This document shows positions 1,445 to 63,399 of a stretch of DNA of 64,000 nt, in pieces; position 1 is the first letter of the stretch; every line of letters starts with the position of its first letter. The DNA is taken from positions 1,321,683 through 1,385,682 of the forward strand of contig CBDCOZ010000003.1 in NCBI GenBank assembly GCA_965220085.1, in the 5' to 3' direction. This DNA comes from Candidatus Oxydemutatoraceae bacterium. Its GTDB lineage: Bacteria > Pseudomonadota > Gammaproteobacteria > Poriferisulfidales > Oxydemutatoraceae. The notes under the pieces are model-generated. The model did no database searches and was not told the origin of the DNA. It saw only the letters and a program-made list of their open reading frames with translations. Made by a program: the position numbers and the translations under genes.

Positions 1445-1522
1445 AGTTATCCTCCTTCTTCTCGGATTGATCTATAAATAATTGTCCGCTGCCGATACGC
1501 CCTCGCAAGGGAGCGATGATGC

Positions 1523-13500: not shown

Positions 13501-16500
13501 CGCCGTGCAGCTCGGCGACCAAACCGCCCGCCCGCTCCTGGTGTCGGTCGGTCCTTATCGTGCCGCTGACGCCGATGTTTGAGATGACGCCATCCTCGCC
13601 GACCGAACCGAACAAGCCCTGCCGCCCCGCATTGCGCCGGATATGCAGGTTTTCAATCGCATGGCCGTTGCCGTTAAATGTCGTCGCAAACGGATTGCCG
13701 CTGTCGCCGATTGGCGGCCAACCTTCGCCGCTCATCCAGGTATCGGTGCTGCTCAAAACATGGTCGGCGGGGTCGGAAAAATCCAGATTCGTCAACAACT
13801 CATAGCCGATGCAACCGCTTTTCGGGCAGCCCATGCCCTCCGTCGCAATCAAAAATGCGGCCTGATAATTCGCCCGATTGCCCGCGGTCGCAATACCATC
13901 GCCGTCCAAATCCCAGCGCATCGCGTTGAGTTGATCCAGGTTGGCGATGTCTATCAGACCATCGTCGTCAAAGTCATAATCGCGTCCCGACATCGCATAA
14001 CTGCGGCTTGCTTCGCCGCCGTCTATGACAGCGGCAACGTGATACGCATAGGAACTGGTCGTATTGGCGGTCATATCGGCATAAGATTCGGCCGATAAAT
14101 TATAGGCCCCGGCTAACGCGATGCCGTCGCGGTAAACCCGGTAGCGGATAGGCGGCGCGGCATCCCACTCAGGCGCCGCGGTCGGCGCTTGCCAATTCAG
14201 AGATCGGGCGGTATCGCCATATGCGACCGATAACGCCGGCGGCCCTTGGCGCAACTGGTAACCGAATTCCTGCCACCTCGCCTCGCCGTTGCCGTCAAAA
14301 TCAACTTTCAGCGCGGGGTATTGCGCGGCGCTGCCAAAGTCCCAATGGTCGCCGCCGTCGTTCCAATTGGCATAGATACCGGCATAGTCTGTCGGACTCT
14401 GCAACTCGGCAGTCCCTTTGCCGCCGATGCCGGTGACCGCACCCAACCCGATCGCATCGTTCTTGGCCGAAGTCTCGGTATCCCAATAGACAGCGGTCGC
14501 CTCAACCGAAGCCGCAAAAACACCGCCGACACCGCCGCTCGCGCTGCCTGACGGATGAAGCAGACCGGTGGCATAACTATACTTGACATTCGCATTGCCC
14601 AGATTGCCGATCAAACCGCCGCCGAACTGACTGCTGCCGCCGCGGGTTACGTTCACATAACCGCTCGCATACGTATGTTCAATCGTCCCATTCGCGGAGC
14701 CGCTGTCGTCTCTGCCGAGCAAGCCGCCCGCTTCGGAGTTGGCAAACACATTGCCGGTCGCATAACTCCTGCGGATGGCGGCGCCCGCCCGACTGGCGCC
14801 GAGCAAGGAGCCGACATAAGCCCGGCCTTCGACCGCCACCGCGGAGTAGCTGTCTTCTATCGTGCCGCTCGCGCTATCGCCGATCAGTCCGCCGACATAA
14901 TTATTGTCGCCCGCGTCGATGGATCCGGTGACGCCGACATTGCGCACCACAGCGCCGGCGATCGCGCCGAACAACCCTTGGTAGGGCGCGTTGCGGTCGA
15001 TGCGCAACCTGCGAAGCGTATGGCCGTTGCCGTCAAAGGTCGCCGTAAACGCGGCGCTGTCGCCGCCGATCGGCGGCCAACCGGCGCCGCTCGTCCACGC
15101 CGTGTTGATACGGCCGCTGTGATAACTGTCGGCGGCGGCAAAATTCAAATCGCGCGTCAACTCATAACCGATGCACGCATCGTTGACGCAACCCAGACCG
15201 GAAATCGCGCTGTGAAAAGCGCGGTCGTAGTCCGTTTGATCGCCCGCGGCAACGACGCCATTGCCGTCCAAGTCCCAGCGCATCGCGTTGAATTGTTCCA
15301 ACGTACTCACTTCGATCAGACCGTTGTCATCGCGGTCATAGTCATACGATTCCGATACGATGGCGCTGCGAATCGCCTCGCCGCCGTAAACGTTCGCGGC
15401 GACGTGATAGACGTAGTTGCGGGTCGCGGTCGTGTTCGTATCGGCGTATTCCGTCAGCGCCGTGTTTTCAATCTCCGGCACGAGGATGCCGTCGCGATAG
15501 AGCGCAAACGTGACCATCGGCGCCGGCGCGCAGTGCGAGGTGTCGGGCATATCCCAAGTAAGAGTTCTGGTTGCATGGACTCCGCTCACTGTCAGCGTCG
15601 GCCCCGTGCGTAACTGGCAACCGAACTCCTGCCAACTCGCCTCACCGTTGCCGTCAAAATCGATCTTCAGCGCCGGGTACTGCTCGGACGTGCCAAAATC
15701 CCAGTGGTCGCCATCGCTTGCATTCCAGCTCGCATAGATGCCGGTGTAGGTCGTCGGCAGTTGTAGTTCGGCGCTCGTCCATCCGCTGATGCCATCATCG
15801 GAACCGTCGCCGACACCGTTGCTATTGGCCGAGGTCTCGCGGTCCCAATAGACATCGGTGAACGTCGCATTGACATTCTCACCGATGACACCGCTGCCCA
15901 TTGATACTATGGGGTCGATCAAAGCGGTGGAATAACCGTAGCCGATCTGTCCCGCCTCGACACGACCGATTAAACCACCTAACAATCTACTGTTACTATC
16001 TAAGCCACTTACATACCCGGTCGCATAGACGTGCTCTACGGTGCCCCCGTGCGTAGAAATACGACCAATCAAACCACCCGTCTGCCTATGCGAATTTATA
16101 TTCCCGGTTGCATAACTCGTACGAACCGTGCCCGCCCTGAGTCTGCCGACCAAAGAACCAACTTCGTTGCGTCCGCTCACCGCGACCGTCGAAAAACTGT
16201 CCTCTATCACCCCGTCAACGCGCACCTGACCGGCCAAGCCGCCGGAAGTATCCTGCCCGTTTACCGCACCGGTGACACCGAGGCGGCTGATGACCGCCGG
16301 GGTTTCAACTACACCGAACAAACCTTGCAGAGATGCATCCCTGTCTATATGCAGGTTATAGATCGTATGACCGTTGCCAGCGAATGCCGCTACAAATCTA
16401 TTATCGGCGCCACTGCCGCCAATCGGCTCCCAACCCTCGCCTTCGCGCCACGCATCATGGACTTTGCCGGTAGCGTAGCTGTCGGGGTCATCAAAATCCA

Positions 16501-19500
16501 GGCTTTGATCCAATTCATACCCGCGACACCCCGAAGGCTCGGCGGAGGTCGACGCAACGGCCGGACACCCCATGCCGACCAGCGCGCCGACAAAAGCTTT
16601 GCCGTAGGCGCGGGCGCCGGCGGATGCAATACCGTCGCCGTCCAAGTCAAACCGCACCGCATCCAGTTGCTCCAGCGTGCTGATTTCAATCAAGCCGTCG
16701 TCGTCGCTGTCGTAATCGTTGATCGGCAACACGACGCGGTCACTGCGGCTCGCTTCGCCGCCATGGATAACCGCCGCCACCCAGTAGGCGTTTCTGACAG
16801 CGAGGTCCGCGCCGGTTATGGCGTAACGCGTCTGCGCAAAGTCTATGCCGTCGCTCAAGAGCGCGCCGTTGTGATACACGGCGTAGGTGACCGTCGGCGT
16901 AGCGGGCGACCAGTGCGACACATCGGGCGCGCTCCACTCCAGCGTCCAATCGGTATCGGCCCCGCTGGCGGTCAAATTGGCGGGGCCGTCGCGCAACTGA
17001 TAGCCGAATTCTTGCCAGCTCGCGATGTCGTCATTGTCAAAATCAACTTTCAGCGCCGGGTATTGCGACGCGCTGCCGAAGTCCCAGTAGTCGCCGCCGT
17101 CGGCATTCCAGTTTTGATAGATGCCGACATAGCCTGTCGCCGCCTGCAACCCGGCCGTCGTCTCGCCGCTGATGCCCGCAACCGCCGCCGACCCGCTCGC
17201 GCTGTTCGCGATGCCCGACGTGTCAATATCCCAATAGGCATCGCGGAGTATGGCGTTCGCATTGATCACACCGCCGCCGACTCCGCCGCTGCGTAACACG
17301 CCGGCGGGAAGTTGCGCGGTCGCGTAGCCATAGCCGAGCCGCACCGCTCCCAGATTGCCGATCAAACCGCCGACATTGTAATTAAAACCCCCGCTCGCCA
17401 AACTGATTTGCCCGGTGGCGTATGTATGCTCGACCGTGCTGCCTGTGGAGACGCCGTACACTTGACCGATCAAGCCGCCGATTTCCTGATGACCGCTTAC
17501 ATTGCCCGTCGCATAACTCGCGCGCACCGCGCCTTGCTCGTTGTAGCCGAGCAGCGAACCGACGTCAAATCCGGCCGCGACCGATACCGTCGAGTAACTC
17601 TTTTCAATGCGACCGCCGCCGACCATTGCGGCGACCAAGCCGCCCATCAATTCTTGATACGGGGTCGCAGTAATCGCGCCGGTCACACCGACATTTGAGA
17701 TCATCGCGCCTTCGCCGAGTTCGCCGAACAGCCCTTGTTGGTTCGCCAGACGACCGATATGCAAGCCCTCTATGGCATAGCCGTCGCCGTTAAACGTCGC
17801 TGTGAAGCGATCACCGCTGTCGCCGATCGGCGACCAGCCGTCGCCCGCCGTCCATGCCTCGTTGACAGCGCCGCCGGCATAGCTCGCCGCGGCGCGGAAA
17901 TCGAGCGCGGTCGTCAGTTCATAGCCGCTGCAACCGTCGGCGCAACCCATGCCGGCGATCGCATGCGGGAAAGCCCGCGCGTAGTCTCCGGCGTGATCGG
18001 ATGTCGGCGCGCCGTCGCCGTCCGTGTCCCAACGCAACGCATTCAGTTGTTCCAAGTTGGCGATCTCTATCAAACCGTCGTCGTCGCGGTCGTAGTCATG
18101 CGATCTGGATACGACGCGCGCGCGGATCGCTTCGCCGCCATCGATGACAACGGCGACATGATAGACATAATTCGTGCCGGCGATCGCGGCGGTGTCGGCA
18201 TAACGCATCGCCGTCAGGTTTTTGCCATCCGACAACACGGAGCCGTCGCGATAGACGGCAAATGCGACGGTGGGCGAAGAGGCGCAGTGAGCCGTATCGG
18301 GCATGCCCCAACTGATATCCCTCCGCTGATCGGCGCCTTGCGTCGCCGCCGCGACGCCCGCGCGCAACTGGCATCCGAACTCTTGCCACGTCGCCATGCC
18401 GTCGTTGTTAAAGTCAACTTTCAGAGCCGGGTATTGCTCGCTGTCGCCGAAATCCCAATGATCGTTGGCATCCGCATTCCAGGCGCCATAGATACCGGTA
18501 TACGTCGTCGGCAAGCGCAACTCGGCGGTGGTTTTGCCGATGACACCGTCGGCGGCGCCGTTGCCGACCGCGTTCGTTGCGCCGGAGGTTTGGGTATCCC
18601 AGTAGACGGCGGCAAACACGGAGTCGCTGCCGGTGATCCTGCCGATGACGCCGCCGCGCGCGCTCATATTGGGAGCGACCGCGGCCGTGGCATAGCCATG
18701 CCTCAGTCGCGAACTGTGACTGACGTCGGCGACCAATCCGCTCGCAAATGCGCTCGGGTGATCGCTCGTCGTGCCGACATAACCGGTGGCGTAAACATGC
18801 TCCGCGGTCGCGCTTCCCAAAGTGGAACCGGCCGCGCCGATCAAGCCGCCCGCCGCGTTGATGGCATAGGCGCTGCCGGTCGCATAACTGCTCCGAACCG
18901 CGCCGGTTTCAAGACGACCGACCAGAGAAGCGACGCCATGCGACCCCTCCGCCGTGACCGTTGAGTAGCTGTTGGCAACCGTGCTGCTATTGCTTACCTG
19001 CCCGACCAAGCCGCCGATATTGTCGCTGTTGCTGCCGTTGGACCTTGACGCCACTTTGCCGGTCACGCCGACATTGGCAATCATCGCGTTTTGACCGCCG
19101 ACGCCGAAGAGTCCCTGATGCGACGCCAGACTGTCGATGCGCAAGTTGTAAATCGTGTGACCGTTGCCGTTGAATTCTGTTTTCAGGCGGCGGATGTTGA
19201 CGCCGATCGGCGACCAACCGGCGCCGCTTGCCCATACGGTGTTCGTGGTGCCGGCGGCATAGCTGTCAAGGTCGGCAAAATCCAAATCGCGGAGCAACTC
19301 GTAGCCTCTGCAACTGCCGCTGGCGGGACAACCCATGTTGGCGGCGGCGCCGGGGAAAGCCGCGGCATACGATTCGGCGACCCAGGATAAGGGCGTGCCG
19401 TCGCCGTCCAAATCCCAACGCACCGCATTGAGTTGATGCAGATTGCCGATCTCGATCAGACCGTCATCGTCGCTGTCATAGTCGGCAGCGGATGCATAAG

Positions 19501-19597
19501 ACACAGAACAGCACGCTGCCAGCGCCGCTATTCCGGCAAGCAATATTTTCAACTCGGTAACCCCCTCCAAGTACTTCATGACAGAACTAATATTCAT
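1523..19597 (-). CDS. Giant secreted multi-module protein, 6,024 aa: signal peptide, 12 x (Ca-binding DxDxDG motif + GLUG-like beta-helix + FN3-like) modules, about 5 cadherin-like repeats, conserved FLEGPLR C-terminal tail
   Basis: Uninterrupted 18,075-nt ORF. The N-terminus MNISSVMKYLEGVTELKILLAGIAALAACCSVSYASA is signal-peptide-like, with an AxA site before ADYDSDDDG. I counted 12 DYDxDDDGLIEI...WQEFG[YC]QLR modules by motif. The C-terminal region carries cadherin motifs (GLFAIDxxSGEIxLA, LDHE/YE, YxLxVxA). The protein ends ...AGIRLRLRLFLEGPLR. Confidence 0.9.
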   Translation of the reverse strand: MNISSVMKYLEGVTELKILLAGIAALAACCSVSYASAADYDSDDDGLIEIGNLHQLNAVRWDLDGDGTPLSWVAESYAAAFPGAAANMGCPASGSCRGYELLRDLDFADLDSYAAGTTNTVWASGAGWSPIGVNIRRLKTEFNGNGHTIYNLRIDSLASHQGLFGVGGQNAMIANVGVTGKVASRSNGSNSDNIGGLVGQVSNSSTVANSYSTVTAEGSHGVASLVGRLETGAVRSSYATGSAYAINAAGGLIGAAGSTLGSATAEHVYATGYVGTTSDHPSAFASGLVADVSHSSRLRHGYATAAVAPNMSARGGVIGRITGSDSVFAAVYWDTQTSGATNAVGNGAADGVIGKTTAELRLPTTYTGIYGAWNADANDHWDFGDSEQYPALKVDFNNDGMATWQEFGCQLRAGVAAATQGADQRRDISWGMPDTAHCASSPTVAFAVYRDGSVLSDGKNLTAMRYADTAAIAGTNYVYHVAVVIDGGEAIRARVVSRSHDYDRDDDGLIEIANLEQLNALRWDTDGDGAPTSDHAGDYARAFPHAIAGMGCADGCSGYELTTALDFRAAASYAGGAVNEAWTAGDGWSPIGDSGDRFTATFNGDGYAIEGLHIGRLANQQGLFGELGEGAMISNVGVTGAITATPYQELMGGLVAAMVGGGRIEKSYSTVSVAAGFDVGSLLGYNEQGAVRASYATGNVSGHQEIGGLIGQVYGVSTGSTVEHTYATGQISLASGGFNYNVGGLIGNLGAVRLGYGYATAQLPAGVLRSGGVGGGVINANAILRDAYWDIDTSGIANSASGSAAVAGISGETTAGLQAATGYVGIYQNWNADGGDYWDFGSASQYPALKVDFDNDDIASWQEFGYQLRDGPANLTASGADTDWTLEWSAPDVSHWSPATPTVTYAVYHNGALLSDGIDFAQTRYAITGADLAVRNAYWVAAVIHGGEASRSDRVVLPINDYDSDDDGLIEISTLEQLDAVRFDLDGDGIASAGARAYGKAFVGALVGMGCPAVASTSAEPSGCRGYELDQSLDFDDPDSYATGKVHDAWREGEGWEPIGGSGADNRFVAAFAGNGHTIYNLHIDRDASLQGLFGVVETPAVISRLGVTGAVNGQDTSGGLAGQVRVDGVIEDSFSTVAVSGRNEVGSLVGRLRAGTVRTSYATGNINSHRQTGGLIGRISTHGGTVEHVYATGYVSGLDSNSRLLGGLIGRVEAGQIGYGYSTALIDPIVSMGSGVIGENVNATFTDVYWDRETSANSNGVGDGSDDGISGWTSAELQLPTTYTGIYASWNASDGDHWDFGTSEQYPALKIDFDGNGEASWQEFGCQLRTGPTLTVSGVHATRTLTWDMPDTSHCAPAPMVTFALYRDGILVPEIENTALTEYADTNTTATRNYVYHVAANVYGGEAIRSAIVSESYDYDRDDNGLIEVSTLEQFNAMRWDLDGNGVVAAGDQTDYDRAFHSAISGLGCVNDACIGYELTRDLNFAAADSYHSGRINTAWTSGAGWPPIGGDSAAFTATFDGNGHTLRRLRIDRNAPYQGLFGAIAGAVVRNVGVTGSIDAGDNNYVGGLIGDSASGTIEDSYSAVAVEGRAYVGSLLGASRAGAAIRRSYATGNVFANSEAGGLLGRDDSGSANGTIEHTYASGYVNVTRGGSSQFGGGLIGNLGNANVKYSYATGLLHPSGSASGGVGGVFAASVEATAVYWDTETSAKNDAIGLGAVTGIGGKGTAELQSPTDYAGIYANWNDGGDHWDFGSAAQYPALKVDFDGNGEARWQEFGYQLRQGPPALSVAYGDTARSLNWQAPTAAPEWDAAPPIRYRVYRDGIALAGAYNLSAESYADMTANTTSSYAYHVAAVIDGGEASRSYAMSGRDYDFDDDGLIDIANLDQLNAMRWDLDGDGIATAGNRANYQAAFLIATEGMGCPKSGCIGYELLTNLDFSDPADHVLSSTDTWMSGEGWPPIGDSGNPFATTFNGNGHAIENLHIRRNAGRQGLFGSVGEDGVISNIGVSGTIRTDRHQERAGGLVAELHGGLIEESYSTVALDSAFEVGSLLGFNDKGTVRASYATGYVRGHRGVGGLIGEAYAYSNESTVEHTYATGQLAVAVSDADNDAGGLIGYLGAVRLRYSYSTARVPAEAKRSGAIGGGASAGAPVFDSVYWDVDASGELDKAVSGGYAPGVAGAPTVLLQAFADYEDLYASWNAENTDYWDFGADKQYPALQVDFNNDGDISWQEFGYQLREGPTLTMSGIGASRTLSWTTPDTSHWPASAPIIAYVVYHNDAVAADGLARTSYVDAAIDLDIINTYRVAAVVGGGEASRSAGFVLPIRDYDRDDDGLIEIATLEQLDAVRWDLDSEGPPMFEPQRYQRAFIAALPGMGCPAAVSTATSACRGYELIKDLDFADPASYASGAINAAWTEGDGWPPIGEKFVGNRFETTFDGNGHTIHNLYGGGTPSLRGLFGGIEAPAIVRRVGVTGSIRVQDAAGGLVGRIYDGGTVEESYSAVAVRGTHGVGSLVGDIQGGIVRRSYATGNATGSSQIGGLIGGIASEGASVEHVYATGYADGTRGGANSSVGGLIGRVRAGQIRSAYSTALVYPAKTFHGGFVGRSDAATFDDVYWDVETSAMSNGVGNGSDSGIGGKTSMELQMATTYAGIYANWNADGGDYWDFGGAKQYPALKIDFNNSGEASWQEFGYQLREGPSRLETGSGAPRKLAWQAPDTSHWDPAPAVGYAVYRDGVALTRDDDIRDTAYMDSGAIDGVDYVYQVAAVVHGGEASRSVAVSRSTDYDTDDNGLIEISSLDQLNVVRWDLDGDGVPAASTRAYLLVFPDAALPGMGCPAGSGCRGYELNGDLDFADVGSYVEGSTVTTAWTQGEGWEPIGGSGADNKFTAVFNGNGHTIYNLHIDRDAAAQGLFGIVETPAVISRLGVTGVVRVREVSGGLAGQLRTDGVIEDSFSTVAVRGRFDIGSLVGRLRAGTIRRSYATGNAEGFNRTGGLIGRISAHGGTVEHVYATGYVSGFNRNSESSGGLLGNAGAGQINYGYSTALLDSIASMSGGFVGENVNATFTDVYWDRETSAKNNGVGDGSDDGISGWTSAELQMPTTYTGIYENWNTSDSDHWDFGTSEQYPALKTDFDGYGEASWQEFGCQLREGPADLTVGYQLTSRTLDWSEPELSHWASTPTITYAVYRDGIVLADGIETSSYADVTADADTIYAYHVAAVINGGEASRSVIVSGRDYDIDDDGLIGIGTLEQLNAMRWDMDGDGNPDDADHAADYAAAFPNTVGTVGCPGVCGGYELTRDLDFDNPADYASGAVNSAWADGWDPIGNLTNVFATAFNGNGHTVYNLGIDTNAERQGLFGDARGATIANIGVTGAIARAGNRVGGVVGSLEGGAIANSYSAVSVRANGFAGGIVGYVANIALRTSYATGNVSASNQVGGLLGFVSNASTSLEHAYATGRVDINGDNANRKGGGLIGDAGGARIGYAYATALVVPDLPRSGGAVGVAGSDSVFASVYWDLETSGRDNAADRAIDGIDGKSSAELRSPPGYVGIYADWNTDGGDYWDFGSSKQYPALKIDFNNDGEASWQEFGCQVREKPILAARGTGDVRTLAWSAPDVSHCKANTSVSYNVYRDGEALTAAGEWTATSYVDAQRSADTEYVYHLAAVIDGGEAARQSIRSRIVDYDDDDDGLIEIDSLEQLDAVRWDLGGDGVPATDSSATYAAVFPDPADDMGCPGGCSGYELMRNLDFDDFASYVTGNVSSAWTTGEGWAPIGAPAAGDRFAATFDGNGHTIYNLHIDRDATAQGLFGAIETPARIGNLGVTGAVVGNDVVGGLVGLLRTDSAIENSYSAVAVRGRSEVGSLAGRVRAAAVRRSYATGNAAAANRAGGLIGRIAALGGTAEHAYATGYVSGVNNSGEVLGGLIGDTSAGQISYAYSTALIDSAATMAGGVVGENSHAAFADIYWDRETSGKQNGVGAGSDSGIDGKTSFELRMPTTYTGIYKNWNTDNSDYWDFGASDQYPALKVDFDGDGAASWREFGCQARSAPVVTASGAGTSRTLNWSAPDTDHCALPQAVTYAVYRDGAALTAGEGIAETTYADTAAVIDDTYAYHVAAVVHGGEAVRGVAVSMARDYDSDDDGLIEVATAEQLAAIRWDLDGDGAPSASTQEYVTRFVDAATNMGCVGTCAGYELINDLDLRAASAGSAEGWVAIGSEAAPFTAIFNGNGNVIANLSIDREADRQGLFGAVVGGTVRNVGVTGTVDASASSLSASGDRVGGLIGELSDGAVRDSYSAVTALGDRSIGSLLGSAKRSVIRASYATGNTHANGRAGGLIGRADDSGGGNDSEIAHVYATGFVDATMATFNRWAGGLIGSLQSAQLKYGYSAALIHPDPIESGGLIGFNALRSDALTAVYWDAGASGRDNPIGLHVLGPGYEGGDKSISELQAPTTYAGIYANWNADGADYWDFGSNNQYPALKVDFNNDGEASWREFGCQLREPPQNAVHYLVGAAVKLTWDAPDVSHCATPPTVGYAVYRDGIRLTAPGGIAEARYLDETSVGGIAHTYHIAAVVNGGEASRHVETLATIDYDRDDDNLLDISNLDQLNAIRWDTDGDGHASTENRSHYLIAFPKSSGGKGCPSGCGGYELTRDLDFADANSYAPDSDSAKRSTGAGWLPIGAREDRYAAVFDGKGRRIDNLRIDRAADRQGLFGSINSSATVSNIGITGSVAGGDQSGGLVGELSGGIVTNSYSAVSARGGEAVAPLVGYADGGAVLASYASGNTSATAVAGGLIGGSGNSANTTVEYVYATGYVNAQRAAGGLIGNMGALQIKYSYAASLINSAAATSGGIAGEVNGVNPTFAVVYWDAQVTGKQRAAGSGSASGATGKTGAELQTPTAYSGIYADWNADDSDNWDFGNAEQYPALKADFDGDGIPSWQEFGCQIREDLALTVRGVGDRDLSWSAPDTTHCAADTVVAYAVYRDSLALASVAEARAEYADTTAAIGSDYTYHVVAVIDGGEAARSVAVSRSRDYDTDDNGLIEITNLEQLDALRWDLDGDGIPSADSRRYETAFPHSAADLNCAHGCNGYELTRSLDFNDSGSYAASTNSEWTAGAGWMPIGARENRFIAAFNGNGHVIENLYIRRDADAQGLFGSAAGATITGVGVTGSVRGGTAVGGLVGELAGGTVAQSYSTVAAQGTEQVGSLLGSVNGGVLRASYATGRALADAAGGGLSGGGDNDANIIIEHVYAAGYVNAQRQGGGLLGSVGGNMRLEYAYSTALVAPGNHGGVAGRVAGGNPVFEAVYWDSDVSGQSVAFGFGSAAGVAAKTAAELQSPTGHVGIYAKWDVNGSIDYWDFGAADEYPALKTDFDGEGTPSWQEFGYQLRQGPRDAAITYADHANVLTWSAPDTSHWQSPPAIAYAVYRDGIAITTATAVMTYEDTERVAGTLHAYSVAAIVHGGEASRSAAPVGLAIADTDPAANTIAENATVGAPLRGITLIANDGDSAVTSGLTWILSDDAGGLFAIDRDSGEITLARAELDHETTPTYVLQVRAERDGDLSAPFAVRADVGNVPKRLTVTNAAMPDITIGAVPDSRIAKNTLVGAPVSNIMLVVSDETNNPVTSGLTWSLPDDADGLFAIDSASGEIVLARSVEDHENTQTHTVRVRVETDNMVYAELEVAIAIDNAPESLTIANRSTATIAVAENTPVGALLGGITLVATDETNNPVTSGLTWSLTEDADGLFAIDADSGAIRLAGMLDYETSATHTITAQAAEGAVLSNRLDLMITVIDFDEAIIAPTVSDTDPTTNTIVENSADTAVAGVSLAATRNGVALSGIIWQLTDDASGLFVITTAGVVRTSADRAPDYETDAGHRVRAAATASDGSIGEYTLMINVTNVLESLRVADDNSADNRIAENAATATAVSGIALVARDEANNPVTSGLTWSLSDNAGGLFAIDSASGEIRLAAAAALGPVATTHTVAVRVSFAGAEAVESDDWELTIEVTEPRAGIRLRLRLFLEGPLR
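1560..3190 (-). repeat. Cadherin-like repeat region (about 5 repeats) at the C-terminus of giant protein 1
   Basis: The translation shows ~100-110-aa units with IAENxxxGAPV, TSGLTW[SI]L[SP]DDA, GLFAIDxxSGEIxLA, xLDxExxxTH and VRVRV-type motifs typical of cadherin/Big-like extracellular repeats. Confidence 0.75.
3190..19480 (-). repeat. Array of 12 divergent tandem coding modules (~1.35-1.5 kb each) in giant gene 1
   Basis: Each module reads: DYDxDDDGLIEIxxLEQLNAxRWDLDGDG, then ...MGCP..C.GYEL..DLDF, then GNGHTIxNLxI..QGLFG, then multiple GGL[IV]G/SYATG/VYATG Gly-rich beta-helix repeats, then VYWDxxTSG...WDFG..QYPALKVDF..WQEFG.QLR, then an FN3-like segment (L.W.APD.SHW/C...YxVYRDG...Y.Y.VAAV..GGEA.RS). 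The copies are divergent at nucleotide level, not identical. Confidence 0.85.
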
Positions 19598-19718
19598 CTA
19601 TTTATTAATGGGTGACACCCCCGGACATGTTTATAAATGTTCTTAGCGAAGGTGTTAAGCGAGTATACAAGTGCGTCATAAGTGGCTGGCGAATCATATA
19701 CTTAGCATGTGTATATCC

Positions 19719-20054
19719 TGTGTATAACCTATTTATGACTTATTAGTGTCGTGTTAATAGCCTGTGGATAAGTGCATCGCTCTGGAGACATGTTGTCGCG
19801 TATGTGCTGGCGTGTTCTGTGGATAACTTTATCACTTCATCAACGTAGCGGCGAGACATGTCCTGTGCATATCCTGTGTGTAAATGTATCACGACCCAGA
19901 CGTTGCCTAGAATCTTCTGTGGATAAATTTATGTGCCGCTGCGCCGGTATGTTACCGAGCGGGCGCTGTGAATATCCCTGTGTATAAAAATGTGGCACTC
20001 GATAGATGTAACCGCGAGTGTGCCGGTTATCCCTGTGGATATATCTGTGGATGA
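19719..20054. promoter_or_regulatory. Cluster of same-orientation DnaA boxes (TGTGGATAA = complement of TTATCCACA): candidate replication origin or DnaA-regulated region
   Basis: Three perfect 9-mers TGTGGATAA sit at 19763-19771, 19818-19826 and 19918-19926. Same-strand near matches are TGTGTATAA at 19719-19727 and 19979-19987, TGTGTGTAA at ~19875-19883, TGTGGATAT at 20034-20042 and TGTGGATGA at 20046-20054. Spacing is about 45-60 bp. An AT-rich stretch lies at ~19621-19760. The region is directly upstream of giant gene 1 (start 19597, minus strand). Confidence 0.6.
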
Positions 20055-20137
20055 AATGTGTCGCCTCGCAGACGCGACCAAGAATGTGCTACTGATGCCT
20101 TGTTAATATTTCTGTGGGCAAGTCTGTCCCCCAACGC

Positions 20138-20153
20138 TCTCCCGCGCGGGAGA
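20138..20153. repeat. 16-bp perfect palindrome TCTCCCGCGCGGGAGA
   Basis: Read directly from the sequence. It lies in the intergenic stretch between the DnaA-box cluster and the coiled-coil gene stop. It could be a protein-binding site or a short hairpin. Confidence 0.5.
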
Positions 20154-20343
20154 ATAGATTCGGCGACAACGCAAAAACTGTCCCCCAAACTATCTTTCAT
20201 GGCGCGCCCCAGAAACGACCCGCAAACAATTAAGTACGGAGCCCAAGCCGAAGCATCAAGCGCCCTATTGCTCCATGCGTCCGATATGTCTTGCATCATA
20301 CGCGCCCCCCTCTCTGTCGGCGCGAACAAGATACGGCGCAGGT

Positions 20344-21183
20344 CTAAACGAAGAGCGCAATAAATATAGTTAGCGCCGCAACAATAAGAGCCGCTAACCC
20401 AAGGGAGACCATCACGAACAGATTTGTGATTTTTGCTATTTGATTATCTATTGCTGCTCTCGTCTCAGTTACTATTGCTTTCAACTCATCTATTTTTTCT
20501 TGGGTTCTTTCTCTGGACTCGGCTATTTCTTTTTGGGTGTCTGATCTGGACTTGGCTATCATTGCTTCCAACTTAGCCATTTCTTTTTGGGTTTTTGCCC
20601 CGGACTCGGCTATTTCTTTTTGGGTGTCTGATCTGGACTTGGCTATCATTGCTTCCAACTTAGCCATTTCTTTTTGGGTTTTTGCCCCGGACTCGGCTAT
20701 TTCTTTTTGGGTGTCTGACCTGAACTTGGCTATCATTGCTTCCAACTTAGCCATTTCTTTTTGGGTTTTTGCCCCGGACTCGGCTATTTCTTTTTGGGTA
20801 TCTGACCTGAACTTGGCTATCACTGCTTCCAATTTATCTATTTCTTTTTGGGTTTTTGCCCCGGACTCAGCTATCATTACTTTCAACTCAGCCACTGCTA
20901 CTTGCAACTCAGTTATGTCTTTTTGGGTTTCCGACCTATGCTTGGCAAATTCCTCTCTGAGCGCTGATTCATACTCGGCAATTTTTGCTCTAATCGCCGA
21001 TTCAAACTCGGCAAATTCGCCTTTCGTTGTCAGAGCGCTCAGGTATCTGTGCAACAGCGCGGATAGCTCGTTGGCAATCGTGCGCGCTTTCTCCTCGTCA
21101 AAGCCCACGCCGGTCAAGTTCTCAACGGAGCCATAAATAACCTCCGCTGTCTCTTCCACTTTTAAATCTTTGGTTTTTTTCAT
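20344..21183 (-). CDS. Tail-anchored coiled-coil protein with 29-aa tandem repeats and a C-terminal transmembrane helix
   Basis: The ORF track gives 20344..21204. I prefer the second ATG (MKKTKDL...) because GGAGGG sits 6 nt upstream of it. The protein is Lys/Glu/Ala-rich with heptad-like repeats: ESGAKTQKEMAKLEAMIAK[FS]RSDTQKEIA occurs 4-5 times. The C-terminal hydrophobic helix is ITNLFVMVSLGLAALIVAALTIFIALFV. G+C is visibly lower than in the flanking giant genes. Confidence 0.75.
   Translation of the reverse strand: MKKTKDLKVEETAEVIYGSVENLTGVGFDEEKARTIANELSALLHRYLSALTTKGEFAEFESAIRAKIAEYESALREEFAKHRSETQKDITELQVAVAELKVMIAESGAKTQKEIDKLEAVIAKFRSDTQKEIAESGAKTQKEMAKLEAMIAKFRSDTQKEIAESGAKTQKEMAKLEAMIAKSRSDTQKEIAESGAKTQKEMAKLEAMIAKSRSDTQKEIAESRERTQEKIDELKAIVTETRAAIDNQIAKITNLFVMVSLGLAALIVAALTIFIALFV
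20515..20880. repeat. 87-bp direct tandem repeat, 4 copies plus a diverged fifth, inside the coiled-coil gene
   Basis: The motif GGACTCGGCTATTTCTTTTTGGGTGTCTGA recurs at 20515, 20602, 20689 and 20776, a period of 87 bp (29 codons), with a diverged copy at ~20873. Confidence 0.9.
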
Positions 21184-21378
21184 GATTATCCCTCCGGGTT
21201 TCATAATAATAATACTAATTCAGAAGCTATAATCAATAGCCTTCGTGCCGGATAATAGCGCTTATTTCGGGAGTCACAACCAACTAATAGACAGGCGGTT
21301 TTAATTGTCTGACGAACGGTCTGACAGCGCCAATTCACAGCGTGATTTTTCTGCAAAGAAGCATTTGCGCGAGTGCCG

Positions 21379-21693
21379 TCATGACGCTCCCGTCGCAGGT
21401 AATCGCAGAGTCCGAGCACAAACGAAGGACGATGCGATGAGAGAGAAATCTTCGCGCTTGCACGAACTGTTGCAAAACTTTCCGCCCGCACTCGCGAGGC
21501 GAATCATGCCGGAAACATTTTGGCTTGCCCTCTCTAATCCTTGAATACCGCTGCCGCCCGCAATCTGTGTGATGCCCATATGTTGATACGCGCGCTCCCT
21601 GCGATGCCATTGTTTGTCTTTCAATGCTTGAAACACTTTATAAACTTTGCTTTCTTTGTCATGAAAGCGGGTTTCGAAATCCTTCGCATTCAT
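21379..21693 (-). CDS. Small hypothetical protein (~104 aa), translationally coupled to the upstream methyltransferase fragment
   Basis: The ORF track gives 21379..21768. A start at the internal ATG (MNAKDFETRFHDKESKVYKVFQALKDKQWHRRERAYQH...) is favoured because AGGGGA sits ~7 nt upstream. This ATG lies 1 nt after the methyltransferase TAA stop. No recognisable domain. Confidence 0.4.
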   Translation of the reverse strand: MNAKDFETRFHDKESKVYKVFQALKDKQWHRRERAYQHMGITQIAGGSGIQGLERASQNVSGMIRLASAGGKFCNSSCKREDFSLIASSFVCARTLRLPATGAS

Positions 21694-21694
21694 A

Positions 21695-22860
21695 TTAATC
21701 CCCTGTGCGAGAACAAGCCGCGGCATAAACTGTCTCGTCTTTCTCGTAGGCCAGCGCTCTTCTGCCAAGCTTGTTTGCGGCTATCAATGTGGTTCCGCTT
21801 CCCGCAAACGGGTCATAAACAAAATCGGCTTTATTGCTAAACAAGGCAATAAGCCGTTCCATCAGAGGAAACGGTTTCTGTGTCGGGTGGATGCGTTGCT
21901 GTGGCGACGGAGACTTACAGACAAACGCATTATGCGCATTCCTGCCATTAAACCCGGTTCCCGGCCTTTTGCCGACCGCTATGGCTTCCCATGCATTGAC
22001 AGGCTTAAATTTGCGGTTGAACGGAACCGGGTTGGTTTTTTGCCAGACGATTGTCTCTGCCGCAACAAACCCATGAGACTTCAAACATTCGCAGCGCTCC
22101 CCAATCTGCGCTTGGGCGCAAAAGGTCGCCGCCCGCCCGCTTTAGGGAGGAGAATGTCAAACCATTCCAAAGGTTCAATGCCGCCATCCCAATCCCCAAA
22201 ATTCCCTTTGGGCATAATAAAATCTTTTCCGTCTTTGCGTAATCGTCTGGGAACTTGTTTTTCACAAGCGTAAGCCTTGCTTATGCCGCAGGGAGGATCG
22301 GTCAAAAACAAATCCACTTCGCGGTCATCCGGTTTTTCCGCCGCCGCAATCCCGTCTCCTAACTTAAATGCGCAATTGCTGCCCTCTAACGAGGCGGGGC
22401 ATTCTTGCAATGCAAGTTGTTCGGATAGCAGTTCTTCGATTTGTTTTGTAATGCTCCGAATGTTTCCATTCTTCTCAATTTTTGCATCTTCGCGAAGGAA
22501 TAAGCGCTCAAGCAGCATCGCATGTCCGCTGATATCCTTCGCATATAAATCAATCTCCCATGCCTTTTCCGATTCGTTATAGACGGGTTCTTTGTGAGAC
22601 AAGAACTTCCTATGTCTCGGGAAGTTCTCCGTTATCCATTTATTAACAGATGCCCGTAATTTAATCTTCTGCTTGACTTGGTCGGCAGTCGCTATGCTCA
22701 CCGTATCAACCCCTCGCGGGTAATCCGCTTGCCATGCATTTGGCATGCGCCATGCCGGCGACATGCGCTTTGGCGGAATGATGAACGGCGCAATGACGTT
22801 TGACCGCGCCGGCGCGCGAAGGGTTTTCATCCGCAAAGAGGGCGGAGCCCTTGCGGACAT
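21695..22860 (-). pseudogene. Frameshift-disrupted beta-class (PF01555-like) N4/N6 DNA methyltransferase with an unusual DPPC motif
   Basis: Two overlapping ORFs in different frames make up the gene. ORF 22081..22860 carries ...DLFLTDPPCGIS...GDWDGGIEPLEWFDILLPKAGG and then leaves the expected sequence (RRPFAPKRRLGSAANV*). ORF 21695..22084 starts at a TTG and carries ...GFVAAETIVWQKTNPVPF...RIHPTQKPFPLMERLIALFS...VYDPFAGSGTTLIAANKLGRRALAYE (motifs HPTQKP and FxGSGTT). A single -1/+2 frameshift at about 22085-22135 (GC runs GGGCGGGCGGCG / CCCC) reconciles them. The true start is uncertain: GTG at 22701 with a GAGGGG SD is a candidate, and a ~150-aa N-terminal region of unknown function precedes the DPPC motif. 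Confidence 0.7.
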
Positions 22861-23012
22861 TTTTATGCATCGTTGTCCGCAGCGTTGTCTTTGTCATGTT
22901 TTCTATCGGCATGGCTTTCGCTCCGCCCTTGCCCTCGCGCATTCCTATTATGGCGGTTTTGCCAACGCCGCCCCTCTCCGGCAGCCTCTCCGCTCGCCGC
23001 GAGAGGGAATGC

Positions 23013-23760
23013 TTACCGGAGGGGGCCTTCGAGGAAGACGCGCAAGCGGATCCGGATTCCGACATCGACATCGGGTCGCTCCGTCGCCATAATGGTAATG
23101 GTCAGCATAAACGGAGCGGATACCACCATCTCGCGATTGGGTTCTCTGAACGAAGCCCGCACTATTATGGTACGCGTCTGCTCCGTCTCAAGGTCCGGCG
23201 CGTCGTTCGCCAATGTAATCGCGCCGCTGGCAGGGTCAATCGCGAACAAGCCGCCGGGGTTCGTCACCAAGTTCCACGTCAGCCCTTCCGTCACTTCCGT
23301 GCCCGCTTCGTCGGTCACCATAAGCCGGATACCCGGCACCGGCGCGCCGGCCCGCGCGCCCTCGGCAATGATACTGCCGGCGCCATCGCTGTCGGTAACC
23401 ATCAATGTCTCCAGCACATTGGTCAGGTTTATCGTCAGAACCAGCGTGGCCGGCTGATAACGGTCGACCACGGCGGTTACGGTGACGCTGTAAACGCGAT
23501 CTTCGCTTTCGTAATCCGGCGCGGCTTTCGCCAGCGTAATCTCGCCGCTGGTGGAATTGATTGCAAACAAGCCCTCCGCATCATCGCTCAAACTCCATGT
23601 CACGCCGCTGACAATGGCAGCGGAGGCGGCTTCGTCCCGCGCTTGCAATGTCACGCCCGATATCGCCATGCCCGCCGTCGCCGTCTCCGCCACTGTGTTG
23701 GCGGTCGGGTTGATGTCGGTTATCGCCAGCGTTGTGTTGGCTTGCACCGCGTACGCATAG
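23013..23760 (-). repeat. Cadherin-like repeat region (2-3 repeats) plus conserved C-terminal tail of giant protein 2
   Basis: TAVAET..AGMAISGVTLQARDEA...VSGVTWSLSDDAEGLFAINSTSGEITLAKAAPDYE...YSVTVTAV is followed by a second unit and then ERPDVDVGIRIRLRVFLEGPLR*. Confidence 0.7.
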
Positions 23761-62723: not shown

Positions 62724-62780
62724 GCAAATTCGGATTGTCAGAGTATAACACGCTCTGCGGCGGGCGGCGGAAAATGGGGA

Positions 62781-62960
62781 TTATATGCTTAAAAACATAA
62801 GACTCATTATCGCCGTTTGAGAATAGCGAGTTTCTAACTCTTTCCTTGTCGGCTTTTTATTCTCATACATTGGCTTTTCGGGCGCCTTGGCTAATAGCGC
62901 ATCCTTAACCGCATCTGCAAATGCTTTAAGCGTTGTTTTCTTATGGTTTTTCTGTTTCAT
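62781..62960 (-). CDS. Small ORF B (59 aa), downstream partner of the overlapping ORF pair; absent from the ORF track because it is under 60 aa
   Basis: Manual translation of the minus strand: MKQKNHKKTTLKAFADAVKDALLAKAPEKPMYENKKPTRKELETRYSQTAIMSLMFLSI*. AAGGA sits 7 nt upstream of the ATG. The start codon overlaps the ORF A stop (ATGA). Confidence 0.35.
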   Translation of the reverse strand: MKQKNHKKTTLKAFADAVKDALLAKAPEKPMYENKKPTRKELETRYSQTAIMSLMFLSI

Positions 62961-63136
62961 TGTAATCCTTCTAAAAAGTTATCCATTTTTTCGGGAATTA
63001 TATGCCTGTGTATGCAAAACAGCCTATCAGTCCGCAATCCTAAAATTGACTCCGGCCATTGCGCTGCTTTGCGCTCTGTTTCAAACATCTTATACAGTTC
63101 AAATAATCCGATTGTCTTTGCCTTTCTCTTTGCCAT
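62957..63136 (-). CDS. Small ORF A (59 aa), upstream partner of an ATGA-overlapping ORF pair
   Basis: MAKRKAKTIGLFELYKMFETERKAAQWPESILGLRTDRLFCIHRHIIPEKMDNFLEGLQ. AGGGG sits ~7 nt upstream of this ATG. The ORF track's longer version (to 63193) starts at a TTG. Its stop TGA overlaps the ATG of ORF B (caATGAaac). AT-rich context. Confidence 0.35.
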   Translation of the reverse strand: MAKRKAKTIGLFELYKMFETERKAAQWPESILGLRTDRLFCIHRHIIPEKMDNFLEGLQ

Positions 63137-63363
63137 CGAAATACCCCTATTCAATGGTCTGATTGCATACACAGGCATATATTCCCCGACCAATGACCAG
63201 TGTCAGGCAGACAGGTATTTGACCGACACATGAACCGTACGCGCTCCCCTCGCAGGGGGGTCGCTCGCACTCAGCGCAAAGGCCGAGTCGCAGGCGAAGG
63301 ACGGGTTGTCGGAGCTTGCAAGGAGAGTGGGGGCAAACTCCCGCCGGTTGAAGTGCAGGTATT

Positions 63364-63399
63364 TACTGCTTGGGCATGGCTTAGCTACTCCAAGCAGTA
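63364..63399 (-). other. 10-bp-stem hairpin (TACTGCTTGG ... CCAAGCAGTA) spanning the hsdR stop codon
   Basis: A perfect inverted repeat at 63364-63373 / 63390-63399 with a 16-nt loop that contains the TAA stop (63381-63383) of the hsdR fragment. An alternative pairing is GCTACT / AGTAGC. No U-tract follows, so it is not a canonical intrinsic terminator. Confidence 0.35.

What the first reader, a model, noticed from the sequence alone, without database searches (positions are those of the whole stretch)
19600..22750. Lower-GC island separating the two giant paralogues
Between the 3' end of giant gene 2 and the start of giant gene 1 the composition drops visibly (AT-rich runs, A/T-rich codons). 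The genes here have a mobile or defence flavour: a DnaA-box array, a tandem-repeat coiled-coil membrane protein and a frameshifted orphan-type DNA methyltransferase with a coupled small ORF. Together with the hsdR fragment at the right edge this suggests the giant genes sit in, or were duplicated around, horizontally acquired DNA. No integrase or tRNA is visible in the window.
Basis: partly seen in the sequence, partly recalled or inferred. Interest (0 to 1): 0.5.

Follow-up and report, generated by a model that had tools for sequence, protein, structure and literature searches.

The report
Decayed restriction-modification transposon between giant genes
The low-GC stretch between the two giant genes is real and is mostly wreckage of mobile DNA: a broken copy of a transposon that carries a restriction-modification system and is common in sponge-symbiont bacteria, followed by an orphan membrane protein gene and a dense cluster of DnaA-binding sites whose role is unknown.

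Summary
Window 19598-23012 has 48.6% G+C against 64.3% for the giant genes. Coding regions are atypical too: GC3 is about 0.48 against 0.71-0.79.

The right half (about 21454-22999, minus strand) is a decayed copy of an IS1595-family transposon. I reconstructed this transposon from other genomes as IR, transposase, type II methyltransferase, HNH restriction enzyme, small ORF4, IR. It is about 3 kb and makes 8-bp target duplications.

In the window copy:
- the transposase keeps only profile positions 173-266 of 335;
- the methyltransferase has one frameshift, DPPY changed to DPPC, and nine private substitutions at invariant sites;
- the 'coupled small ORF' is the first ~76 residues of the restriction enzyme.

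So the methyltransferase is not an orphan. A second, internally deleted copy lies just upstream of giant gene 1 (62776-63189).

The left half holds a near-orphan tail-anchored coiled-coil gene with a recent 29-residue repeat expansion. It also holds a real DnaA-box cluster: 7 sites with at most one mismatch in 336 bp, all on one strand.

Horizontal origin is supported for the transposon part. 'Duplicated around the island' is not supported: the giant proteins share only 42-44% identity. No close relative was available for an empty-site comparison. Overall this is an ordinary kind of feature. Two modest curiosities remain: the DnaA cluster and the cross-phylum transposon family.

The parts
19598..19707 (-). 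AT-rich leader upstream of giant gene 2 (ATG at 19597). It contains a 13-mer resembling the transposon terminal repeat at 19689-19701 (GCGAATCATATAC, plus-strand orientation, pointing into the island).
   Evidence: GC 0.409. The 13-mer matches the consensus GGGAATTATATAC at 11/13. It matches the repeat of L058 at 14/16 by eye. The status is suggestive only: no partner repeat or target duplication can be tested.
19708..20054 (-). DnaA-box cluster. Perfect TTATCCACA at 19763, 19818 and 19918. One-mismatch boxes at 19719, 19979, 20034 and 20046. Two-mismatch boxes at 19708, 19864, 19875 and 19967. All are in one orientation. Four pairs are spaced by 2-3 bp.
   Evidence: far above simulated and empirical background. 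No GC-skew or GC3-skew sign change at this point.
20055..20343 (.). Spacer. The ORF 20027-20329 (100 aa) has no family match and is probably not a gene.
   Evidence: No Pfam, NCBIfam or PADLOC hit. GC 0.554.
20344..21183 (-). Tail-anchored coiled-coil protein of 279 aa counted from M8, with GGAGGG 6 nt upstream of that ATG. It carries 4.6 tandem copies of an 87-nt (29-aa) unit at 20474-20874 and a C-terminal transmembrane tail.
   Evidence: The only real homologues are P0245 (156 aa, 79% identity over the N-terminal part, on the same source contig, without the expansion), P0246 and P0248. No Pfam family passes its threshold.
21184..21453 (.). Spacer of unknown origin with promoter-like hexamers for the coiled-coil gene. 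The restriction-enzyme homology stops at its right end.
   Evidence: No similarity to any fetched locus.
21454..21693 (-). N-terminal stump of the HNH-type type II restriction enzyme (profile positions 2-76 of 234). The zinc-binding motif WHCRECEY has become WHRRERAY (21586-21609). The open frame runs on to 21379.
   Evidence: 61% identity to L003:7060-7773 over 64 aa. Profile E 2e-22, with no trace of the rest anywhere in the window. Family identity comes from PADLOC REase_II PDLC03537, E 7e-65, for the intact L061 homologue.
21695..22746 (-). Beta-class N6/N4 DNA methyltransferase pseudogene. It has a frameshift in GCGGGCGGGCGG at 22132-22152 and motif IV DPPY changed to DPPC at 22288-22299. 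Its native N-terminus is probably lost at the junction with the transposase fragment.
   Evidence: (the 351-aa reconstruction hits ~350-aa proteins at 57-60% identity over 93%). Nine private substitutions at positions invariant in 24 homologues. The frameshift is also in Logan contig L002.
22709..22999 (-). Fragment of an IS1595-family DDE transposase (profile positions 173-266 of 335). The zinc ribbon, the first catalytic Asp region and the C-terminal ~70 residues are missing.
   Evidence: PF12762 E 6e-8. NF033547. Element-specific profile E 5e-15. It begins just after the stop codon and hairpin of G1, a context that G1 shares with G2.
62776..62992 (-). Right-end remnant of a second copy of the same transposon. 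It holds ORF4 (62781-62960) and a terminal-repeat-like sequence, GGGGATTATATGC, at 62776, 54 nt upstream of the ATG of giant gene 1.
   Evidence: ORF4 profile E 7.5e-6. tblastx to L070 ORF4. Repeat match 11/13. GC 0.373.
62991..63189 (-). Miniature (~196 bp) internally deleted derivative. It has a 27-nt inverted-repeat pair (62991-63017 and 63163-63189, 92.6%) enclosing the first ~30-50 codons of the transposase.
   Evidence: Transposase profile positions 19-49, E 1e-4. tblastx to the L070 transposase N-terminus.

Best explanation
The island is an intergenic dumping ground of horizontally acquired, now mostly dead DNA. It lies between two old, independently complete giant GLUG-repeat genes.

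Shown:
- The segment from about 21454 to 22999 is a degraded copy of a ~3-kb IS1595-family transposon. Its intact form is IR (GGGAATTATATAC...), DDE transposase, type II N6/N4 methyltransferase, HNH restriction enzyme, small ORF4, IR.
- In intact copies the first three genes are translationally coupled and the element makes 8-bp AT-rich target duplications.
- A second, internally deleted copy sits directly upstream of giant gene 1.

Inferred history:
1. The element transposed into the AT-rich intergenic DNA next to the giant genes. Such DNA offers the few AT-rich targets in a 64% G+C genome.
2. The restriction gene was truncated first, which is the only order that is not lethal.
3. The methyltransferase then drifted (frameshift, DPPY to DPPC, nine private changes).
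4. Deletions removed both ends of the transposase, fixing the remnant in place.

The left ~1.85 kb (19598-21453) is a separate low-GC segment of unknown source. It carries an intact near-orphan tail-anchored coiled-coil gene, recently lengthened by a 29-residue repeat expansion, and a dense one-orientation array of DnaA boxes. The boxes lie 120-460 bp upstream of giant gene 2. I infer that the array binds DnaA. It would then act either as a titration or regulatory site for the giant-gene promoter region, or as a relic of a mobile-element origin. It is not the chromosomal origin.
For: - Composition.
- Transposase fragment.
- Methyltransferase reconstruction and its lesions.
- Restriction-enzyme stump. 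Its family.
- The M-R pair is conserved in about 70 of 80 loci. A transposase of this family lies directly upstream in 25-27 of 82 loci, about 12 of them full length.
- Terminal inverted repeats and 8-bp target duplications in L021, L025, L026, L031, L033 and L054.
- Second copy upstream of G1.
- The G1 stop codon and hairpin are native, because G2 has the same context.
- The giant genes are old paralogues.
- DnaA cluster statistics.
- No skew switch and all genes on one strand.
- Coiled-coil gene.
- Restriction-modification units with inverted repeats and 8-bp duplications are a documented mobile form (Furuta et al. 2010, PMC2853133).
Against: - No empty-site genome was available, so the insertion is inferred from element anatomy and composition, not from comparison.
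- The window copy has lost its left terminal repeat. Its right end is at best the 11/13 match at 19689, so its limits and any target duplication cannot be shown.
- The transposase fragment has host-like G+C (0.605) while the M-R part has 0.47-0.52. The two may come from different copies or differ in age.
- The coiled-coil gene has a paralogue on the same chromosome, so it may be resident rather than imported.
- DnaA binding is inferred from sequence only.
- The frameshift is confirmed only in an assembly that may use the same reads.
Confidence: 0.8

Rival explanations
1. The DnaA-box cluster with its flanking AT-rich DNA is the chromosomal replication origin (oriC) of this bacterium, and the low G+C simply reflects origin DNA.
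For: There are three perfect and four one-mismatch boxes in 336 bp, plus weaker boxes spaced 2-3 bp from stronger ones as in DnaA-oligomerising arrays. Adjacent DNA has 41% G+C.
Against: Whole-sequence GC skew is negative on both sides. Coding-sense GC3 skew is -0.19 in G2 and -0.22 in G1, so there is no sign change. Every gene in the window is on the minus strand, so a 40-kb gene would be head-on to replication. No dnaA, dnaN, gidA or parAB lies nearby. All boxes point one way. The flank beyond the last boxes is 55% G+C, so no clear unwinding element is present.
Confidence: 0.07
2. The whole 19689-23000 stretch is one transposon copy. The coiled-coil gene and the DnaA array would be alternative cargo that replaced the 3' half of the restriction gene and ORF4, bounded on the left by the repeat-like 13-mer at 19689.
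For: The 13-mer at 19689 matches the terminal repeat (11/13, and 14/16 to L058) in the expected orientation. It sits 92 nt before the G2 ATG, as the repeat at 62776 sits 54 nt before the G1 ATG. The repeat of the local miniature element shares ATAT(G)CCTGTGTAT with units of the DnaA array.
Against: None of 82 related loci carries such cargo or any DnaA-box cluster. An 11/13 match in AT-rich DNA is weak: seven matches with at most three mismatches were found against 6.3 expected window-wide. No partner repeat or target duplication exists.
Confidence: 0.15
3. The island is native intergenic DNA. Low G+C would be the normal state of promoters and short lineage-specific genes in a high-GC genome, and only the restriction-modification remnant is foreign.
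For: The 5' ends of both giant genes and both upstream regions are AT-rich. The coiled-coil gene has a paralogue on the same chromosome.
Against: GC3 of the coiled-coil gene is 0.475, against 0.71-0.79 for neighbouring genes. That gap is too large for a long-resident gene. Nearly half of the island is demonstrably transposon-derived.
Confidence: 0.2
4. The two same-orientation transposon remnants that bracket giant gene 1 are what is left of a composite transposon, or of a recombination substrate, that moved or duplicated the giant gene.
For: Remnants of one element family lie on both sides of G1, both on the minus strand. Copies of this element do recombine: L061 and L064 have exchanged flanks.
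Against: G1 and G2 share only 42-44% identity with no collinearity. Both have their own signal peptide and the same native stop context. The remnants keep different, non-overlapping parts, so they cannot be compared. No target duplication flanks the pair.
Confidence: 0.07

Closest known systems
IS1595-family insertion sequences (ISXO2-like DDE transposase) and their passenger-carrying forms (transporter IS, as catalogued by ISfinder; from my own knowledge)
   Same: Zinc-ribbon plus DDE_Tnp_IS1595 transposase (PF12760, PF12762). Terminal inverted repeats of 24-31 bp. 8-bp target duplications. A cargo-less 1.28-kb form also exists (L054).
   Different: The form reconstructed here carries three coupled passenger genes: a type II methyltransferase, an HNH restriction enzyme and a ~55-aa ORF. 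The window copies are non-autonomous wrecks.
Transposon-like mobile restriction-modification units (Furuta, Abe and Kobayashi 2010, PMC2853133)
   Same: Restriction-modification genes bounded by imperfect inverted repeats and inserted with 8-bp target duplication. Linked transposase homologues are often inactivated.
   Different: That study could not say which enzyme moved its units. Here many copies retain a full-length cognate transposase whose stop overlaps the methyltransferase start. The family is spread over at least 10 phyla, largely in MAGs named as sponge symbionts.
Non-origin DnaA-box clusters (E. coli datA and DARS, Bacillus subtilis DnaA-box clusters; from my own knowledge)
   Same: A dense group of consensus DnaA boxes in an intergenic region away from any recognisable origin.
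   Different: Eleven to thirteen boxes all in one orientation. They lie in low-GC, probably imported DNA directly upstream of an 18-kb gene. No binding or titration data exist.
DUF1640 / CCDC90-like tail-anchored coiled-coil proteins (PF07798)
   Same: A short N-terminal helical domain, heptad-rich repeats and a single C-terminal transmembrane helix. Weak hits such as P0266 have this look.
   Different: No Pfam match at E <= 0.01. Only three true homologues exist among 1.8 billion representatives.

Membership tests
IS1595-family transposon (window copy 21454-22999) | DDE_Tnp_IS1595 transposase | tested here: met
   PF12762 E 6e-8. NF033547 E 3e-6, which is below the curated cut-off because only a fragment is present. 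Element profile positions 173-266 of 335, E 5e-15.
IS1595-family transposon (window copy 21454-22999) | Complete transposase with zinc ribbon and all three catalytic residues | tested here: not met
   Only profile positions 173-266 remain. The N-terminal 172 and C-terminal ~70 positions are absent. It is therefore a remnant, not an active member.
IS1595-family transposon (window copy 21454-22999) | Terminal inverted repeats and 8-bp target-site duplication | tested here: inconclusive
   The left repeat has been deleted. The only candidate right repeat is the 11/13 match at 19689. Intact relatives do have both features.
IS1595-family transposon (copy upstream of G1, 62776-63189) | Terminal inverted repeats enclosing element-derived sequence | tested here: met
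   27-nt inverted pair with 92.6% identity, starting GGGAATTATATGC (12/13 to the consensus). Transposase N-terminus E 1e-4 and ORF4 E 7.5e-6. No target duplication was seen.
Type II restriction-modification system | Methyltransferase with intact catalytic motif IV (D/N/S)PP(Y/F/W) and motif I FxGxG in one reading frame | tested here: not met
   Motif I, DPFAGSGTT, is present. Motif IV reads DPPC where 24 of 24 homologues have DPPY. One frameshift lies at 22132-22152.
Type II restriction-modification system | Cognate restriction endonuclease adjacent to the methyltransferase | tested here: not met
   Only positions 2-76 of 234 remain and the CxxC motif is lost. The intact homologue matches PADLOC REase_II PDLC03537, E 7e-65. 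The window therefore holds a dead system.
Orphan (solitary) DNA methyltransferase such as CcrM or Dam | No cognate nuclease in the family's usual context | tested here: not met
   The 237-aa nuclease follows the methyltransferase in about 70 of 80 loci. The NCBIfam CcrM score of 64 bits is far below the cut-off of 830.
Chromosomal replication origin (oriC) | DnaA-box cluster | tested here: met
Chromosomal replication origin (oriC) | GC-skew sign change and switch of gene orientation at the site | tested here: not met
   Skew is negative on both sides. GC3 skew is -0.19 and -0.22. All genes are on the minus strand. Only 64 kb could be examined.
Chromosomal replication origin (oriC) | Origin activity (marker frequency, DnaA binding, unwinding) | not testable with these tools
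   This needs the whole chromosome, read coverage or experiments.
Genomic island in the classical sense | Atypical composition plus mobility genes | tested here: met
   for composition. for the transposase remnants.
Genomic island in the classical sense | Integrase, tRNA target and flanking direct repeats | tested here: not met
   No tRNA. No integrase domain in any island ORF. No flanking direct repeats.
Genomic island in the classical sense | Absence from close relatives | not testable with these tools
   No close relative was found in the genome or protein collections.
DUF1640 / CCDC90-like (PF07798) | Pfam profile match above the gathering score | tested here: not met
   No PF07798 hit at E <= 0.01.

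The most novel reading that the evidence does not exclude
The one-orientation array of 11-13 DnaA boxes is a functional high-capacity DnaA-binding locus that arrived with horizontally acquired DNA. It would act as a datA-like sink for the initiator. Alternatively it would place the promoter region of an 18-kb giant surface-protein gene under DnaA, and hence cell-cycle, control in an uncultured, probably sponge-associated symbiont.
Probability: 0.25. Interest if true: 0.55.

Novelty: new member of a known kind. Interest (0 to 1): 0.3.

Why it matters
For the window itself the result is mostly housekeeping.
- The island should be annotated as a dead transposon-borne restriction-modification system plus an orphan gene. 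It is neither a defence locus nor evidence that the giant genes were duplicated by mobile DNA.
- The intergenic DNA next to giant genes acts as a sink for AT-seeking transposons in a GC-rich genome. One remnant ends 54 nt before the start codon of the 40-kb gene, so it may now supply or disturb that gene's promoter.

Two by-products may be worth more than the finding.
1. A compact IS1595-family transposon with target duplications carries a complete type II restriction-modification system. It occurs in MAGs of a dozen phyla, most of which carry sponge-symbiont names. This gives a concrete vehicle for the known enrichment of restriction-modification genes in sponge microbiomes and a marker of cross-phylum gene flow.
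2. A DnaA-box cluster lies outside any recognisable origin. It could be tested for initiator titration.

Tried and rejected
- blastn of the island against plasmid and phage collections: no match.
- Rfam at a permissive threshold over 19000-23500: nothing.
- Promoter and terminator scans: at background level.
- Genome-collection scan with the C-terminus of G1, to find relatives and an empty site: no relative.
- Protein search with the N-terminal module of G2: only single-module GLUG proteins at 47% identity or less, so no comparator genome.
- Exact look-ups return only short Logan contigs from run ERR14375724. The 2.05-Mb source contig was not retrievable, so whole-chromosome skew, the context of paralogue P0245 and the organism's name stay unknown.
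- Coiled-coil gene in metagenome and viral collections, as a single sequence and as an alignment: nothing.
- Methyltransferase in viral contigs: nothing.
- I first thought the window and L004 transposase fragments were unrelated (BLAST E 26). The element-specific profile later showed that both belong to one family.
- I considered that G1 had inserted into a single transposase gene, because an N-terminal piece lies upstream and a central piece downstream. I rejected this because ORF4 and a terminal repeat lie between the N-terminal piece and G1. There are therefore two separate copies.
- The upstream regions of G1 and G2 are not alignable above shuffled background (score 49 against 46 +/- 7).
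- PDB sequence search with the restriction enzyme: no hit.
- Literature searches found no description of this particular element. The searches were limited.

Full report
Layout of the window. It holds two giant ORFs on the minus strand. G2 is 1523-19597 (6024 aa) and G1 is 23013-62723 (13236 aa). Both consist of ~470-residue GLUG-motif modules; their homologues carry PF07581. Each has its own signal-peptide-like N-terminus. Both end in ...FLEGPLR*, followed by TAAGCAT and a hairpin. All other genes in the window are also on the minus strand. These are the M23 peptidase, a pterin-4a-dehydratase gene (annotated on the identical Logan contig L001), the island genes, and an hsdR C-terminal region whose frame is open to the window edge.

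Check of the observation. The drop in G+C is real and sharp. In 200-nt windows G+C is 0.395-0.55 from 19500 to 22800, against 0.58-0.70 outside. The island 19598-23012 has 0.486 G+C and the giant ORFs 0.643. The difference also holds at synonymous sites. GC3 is 0.475 for the coiled-coil gene and 0.48-0.55 for the methyltransferase, against 0.71, 0.79 and 0.74 for G2, G1 and the M23 peptidase. A second low-GC patch (0.385-0.48) lies at 62600-63200, upstream of G1. There is no tRNA.

The methyltransferase and its partner. I joined the two frames at 22132-22152, within the run GCGGGCGGGCGG. This gives a 351-residue protein that matches ~350-residue proteins at 57-60% identity over 93-95% of its length. 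One frameshift therefore separates the two ORFs. The same frameshift is in Logan contig L002, which is 100% identical to window 21407-23307. In an alignment with 24 homologues the catalytic motif IV reads DPPC where all the others read DPPY. The window copy has nine private substitutions at positions invariant in the other 24, whereas those sequences have 0-5 each, median 0. In locus L003 the homologous methyltransferase is followed 7 nt later by a 237-residue ORF. The window's 'coupled small ORF' matches its first 64 residues at 61% identity. A profile built from 63 such partners finds only positions 2-76 of 234 in the window (21690-21454, E 2e-22) and nothing elsewhere. The conserved WHCRECEY has become WHRRERAY. 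PADLOC identifies the intact partner as a type II restriction enzyme (REase_II PDLC03537, E 7e-65, full-length match) and the methyltransferase as MTase_II. The module is therefore a dead type II restriction-modification system. It is not an orphan methyltransferase.

The transposon. A scan of one genome per species with the methyltransferase alignment returned 80 loci. In about 70 of them the restriction gene follows directly. In 27 of 82 loci a transposase of one IS1595 subfamily is present, nearly always directly upstream on the same strand. About 12 of these are full length (307-331 aa) and about 13 carry internal deletions or frameshifts. In L021, L025, L031, L033 and L061 the three genes overlap by a few bases and a ~50-60-residue ORF4 follows. 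The unit is bounded by 24-31-bp terminal inverted repeats beginning GGGAATTATATAC. It is flanked by 8-bp AT-rich direct duplications: ATATGAAA, CTTCCAAA, AAATCGAT, TAAATTAA, TAAATTTT and ATTTGAAA. This is a ~2.95-3.0-kb IS1595-family transposon with restriction-modification cargo. A cargo-less 1276-bp form occurs in L054. Two copies in one Bryobacterales MAG (L061 and L064) have exchanged flanks, which indicates an inversion by recombination between copies. The hosts named in the record titles span Chloroflexota, Acidimicrobiia, Gamma- and Alphaproteobacteria, Gemmatimonadota, Acidobacteriota, Nitrospinota, Nitrospirota, Verrucomicrobiota, Bacteroidota, Cyanobacteria and Binatia. Many names point to sponge symbiosis, for example Ca. 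Synechococcus spongiarum, Ca. Poriferisodalis, Ca. Poriferisocius, Ca. Porisulfidus, Spongiisociaceae and the Cycloclasticus symbiont of Poecilosclerida. Restriction-modification units with inverted repeats and 8-bp duplications are a known mobile form (Furuta et al. 2010, PMC2853133). I found no description of this particular family in limited searches.

The window copies. A profile of the element's transposase, run against the six-frame translation of the whole window, finds two pieces. Positions 173-266 of 335 lie at 22999-22727 (E 5e-15). Positions 19-49 lie at about 63136-63044 (E 1e-4). The first piece starts immediately after the native stop codon and hairpin of G1. It abuts the methyltransferase with loss of the transposase C-terminus and probably of the methyltransferase's own first codons. 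The second piece lies inside a 196-bp miniature element bounded by a 27-nt inverted pair (62991-63017 and 63163-63189, 92.6% identity, starting GGGAATTATATGC). Next to it is an ORF4 homologue (62978-62784, E 7.5e-6) that ends in another repeat-like sequence at 62776, 54 nt before the G1 ATG. tblastx links both pieces to the element in L070. G1 is thus bracketed by two decayed copies of one transposon family in the same orientation. A further 11/13 match to the terminal repeat lies at 19689, 92 nt before the G2 ATG. This match is only suggestive.

Order of events (inference). A restriction enzyme cannot outlive its methyltransferase, so truncation of the restriction gene must have come first. 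The single frameshift and few private substitutions in the methyltransferase suggest a recent loss of constraint. By contrast G1 and G2 align at only 42-44% amino-acid identity in every register and 65-69% at DNA level, with no collinear block. The paralogy is therefore much older than the insertions, and the idea that the genes were duplicated around the island is not supported. The AT-rich target duplications suggest a preference for AT-rich DNA. In a 64% G+C genome such DNA is concentrated in intergenic and promoter regions. That would explain repeated hits next to the giant genes.

The left half of the island. Window 19598-21453 has no similarity to the plasmid or phage collections, to any of the 84 fetched loci or to Rfam. 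The coiled-coil gene most likely starts at M8 (21183), with GGAGGG 6 nt upstream. It encodes 279 residues: a short N-terminal domain, heptad-rich repeats and a C-terminal transmembrane tail. An exhaustive profile search of 1.8 billion representatives gave only three true homologues. The best, P0245, has 156 aa and 79% identity over the N-terminal 117 residues of the match. It has the same N- and C-termini but lacks the 4.6 x 29-residue expansion, and it lies on the same 2.05-Mb source contig. The gene is thus a near-orphan with a paralogue in the same genome, recently lengthened by tandem duplication with 94% unit identity. Its function is unknown and no Pfam family passes its threshold.

The DnaA-box cluster. 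Eleven to thirteen boxes lie on one strand within 19708-20054 (up to 20113 if the weakest are counted). Three are perfect, four have one mismatch and the rest have two. Four pairs are separated by 2-3 bp. This density is far beyond chance. It is unlikely to be the chromosomal origin, for these reasons:
- Whole-sequence GC skew is negative on both sides.
- Coding-sense GC3 skew is -0.19 in G2 and -0.22 in G1.
- All genes are on one strand.
- No origin-linked genes are present.
- The DNA beyond the last boxes is 55% G+C.

I rate a DnaA-titrating or regulatory site, or a relic of a mobile-element origin, as the more likely readings. None of these can be tested here. One oddity remains unexplained. 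The repeat of the local miniature element (GGGAATTATATGCCTGTGTATGCAA) shares ATAT(G)CCTGTGTAT with units of the array.

Limits. No close relative of this genome was retrievable. A sponge-associated origin is only suggested by the relatives of the transposon. The source contig itself could not be fetched.

Verdict. It is wrong in several details: the methyltransferase is not an orphan, the hsdR 'fragment' is a window-edge effect, mobility genes are present, and duplication around the island is not supported. The feature is an ordinary kind of thing, namely decayed mobile DNA in an intergenic gap, so interest is low to moderate. The cross-phylum restriction-modification transposon and the non-origin DnaA-box cluster are the two points that might repay follow-up.

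Noticed in passing
L021:3957-6922, L025:3954-6961, L026:3954-6961, L033:3966-6919, L031:~3846-6875, L061:3934-6900: Intact ~3-kb IS1595-family transposons with the order IR, transposase, type II methyltransferase, HNH restriction enzyme, ORF4, IR, and 8-bp target duplications. They occur in MAGs of at least 10 phyla, many with sponge-symbiont names. This looks like a cross-phylum mobile restriction-modification element of the sponge microbiome.
   Followed up: partly
L061 and L064 (two contigs of one Bryobacterales MAG): The two element copies have swapped flanking octamers (AATACAAT and TATTTTTT). This is the signature of an inversion or other rearrangement by recombination between the copies.
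   Followed up: no
L054:3390-4665: A cargo-less 1276-bp insertion sequence of the same family with the same terminal repeat and target duplication TAAATTTT. It suggests that the restriction-modification cargo was captured by, or lost from, a plain IS.
   Followed up: no
window 22690-22746; L004:5965-7620 (= P0105, also L022): In both the window and an unrelated gammaproteobacterial MAG, the transposase is deleted from about profile position 260-266 up to about residue 15-20 of the methyltransferase. In L004 this gives an in-frame Zn-ribbon-transposase::methyltransferase fusion of 539 aa. This may be a recurrent deletion endpoint.
   Followed up: partly
window 62993-63017 versus 19708-19730, 19864-19885, 19967-19990: The terminal repeat of the local miniature element (GGGAATTATATGCCTGTGTATGCAA) shares ATAT(G)CCTGTGTAT with the double-box units of the DnaA array. 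Whether this is chance, shared ancestry or a host-factor site in the transposon end (as in the Tn5 outside end) is unresolved.
   Followed up: no
window 23013-62723 (G1): Coding-sense GC3 skew runs from about -0.05 at the 3' end to about -0.39 at the 5' end of the 40-kb gene. Whole-sequence GC skew changes from about -0.1 to about 0 near 41-46 kb. The cause is unknown. The change lies inside a gene, so it is not an origin.
   Followed up: partly
window 21407 (end of Logan contig L002): The independent short contig stops 47 nt beyond the point where restriction-enzyme homology ends (21454). This could reflect population heterogeneity or a graph branch at that junction.
   Followed up: no
window 1445-1525 and 22968-23015: Both giant genes end ...FLEGPLR*, followed by TAAGCAT and a GC-rich hairpin. 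This conserved stop and terminator context shows that the G1 3' end is native and that the transposon remnant begins right after it.
   Followed up: yes
window 63381-64000: The hsdR C-terminal domain (PF11867, E 2e-81) has a reading frame that is open to the window edge. The gene may be complete, so an intact type I restriction system may sit next to the dead type II one.
   Followed up: partly
G1, inside one repeat unit (protein sequence ...CVSMLCGDNEVLQGSACVACAS...): A Cys-rich insert of roughly 150 residues interrupts one of the otherwise regular GLUG modules of the 13236-aa protein.
   Followed up: no
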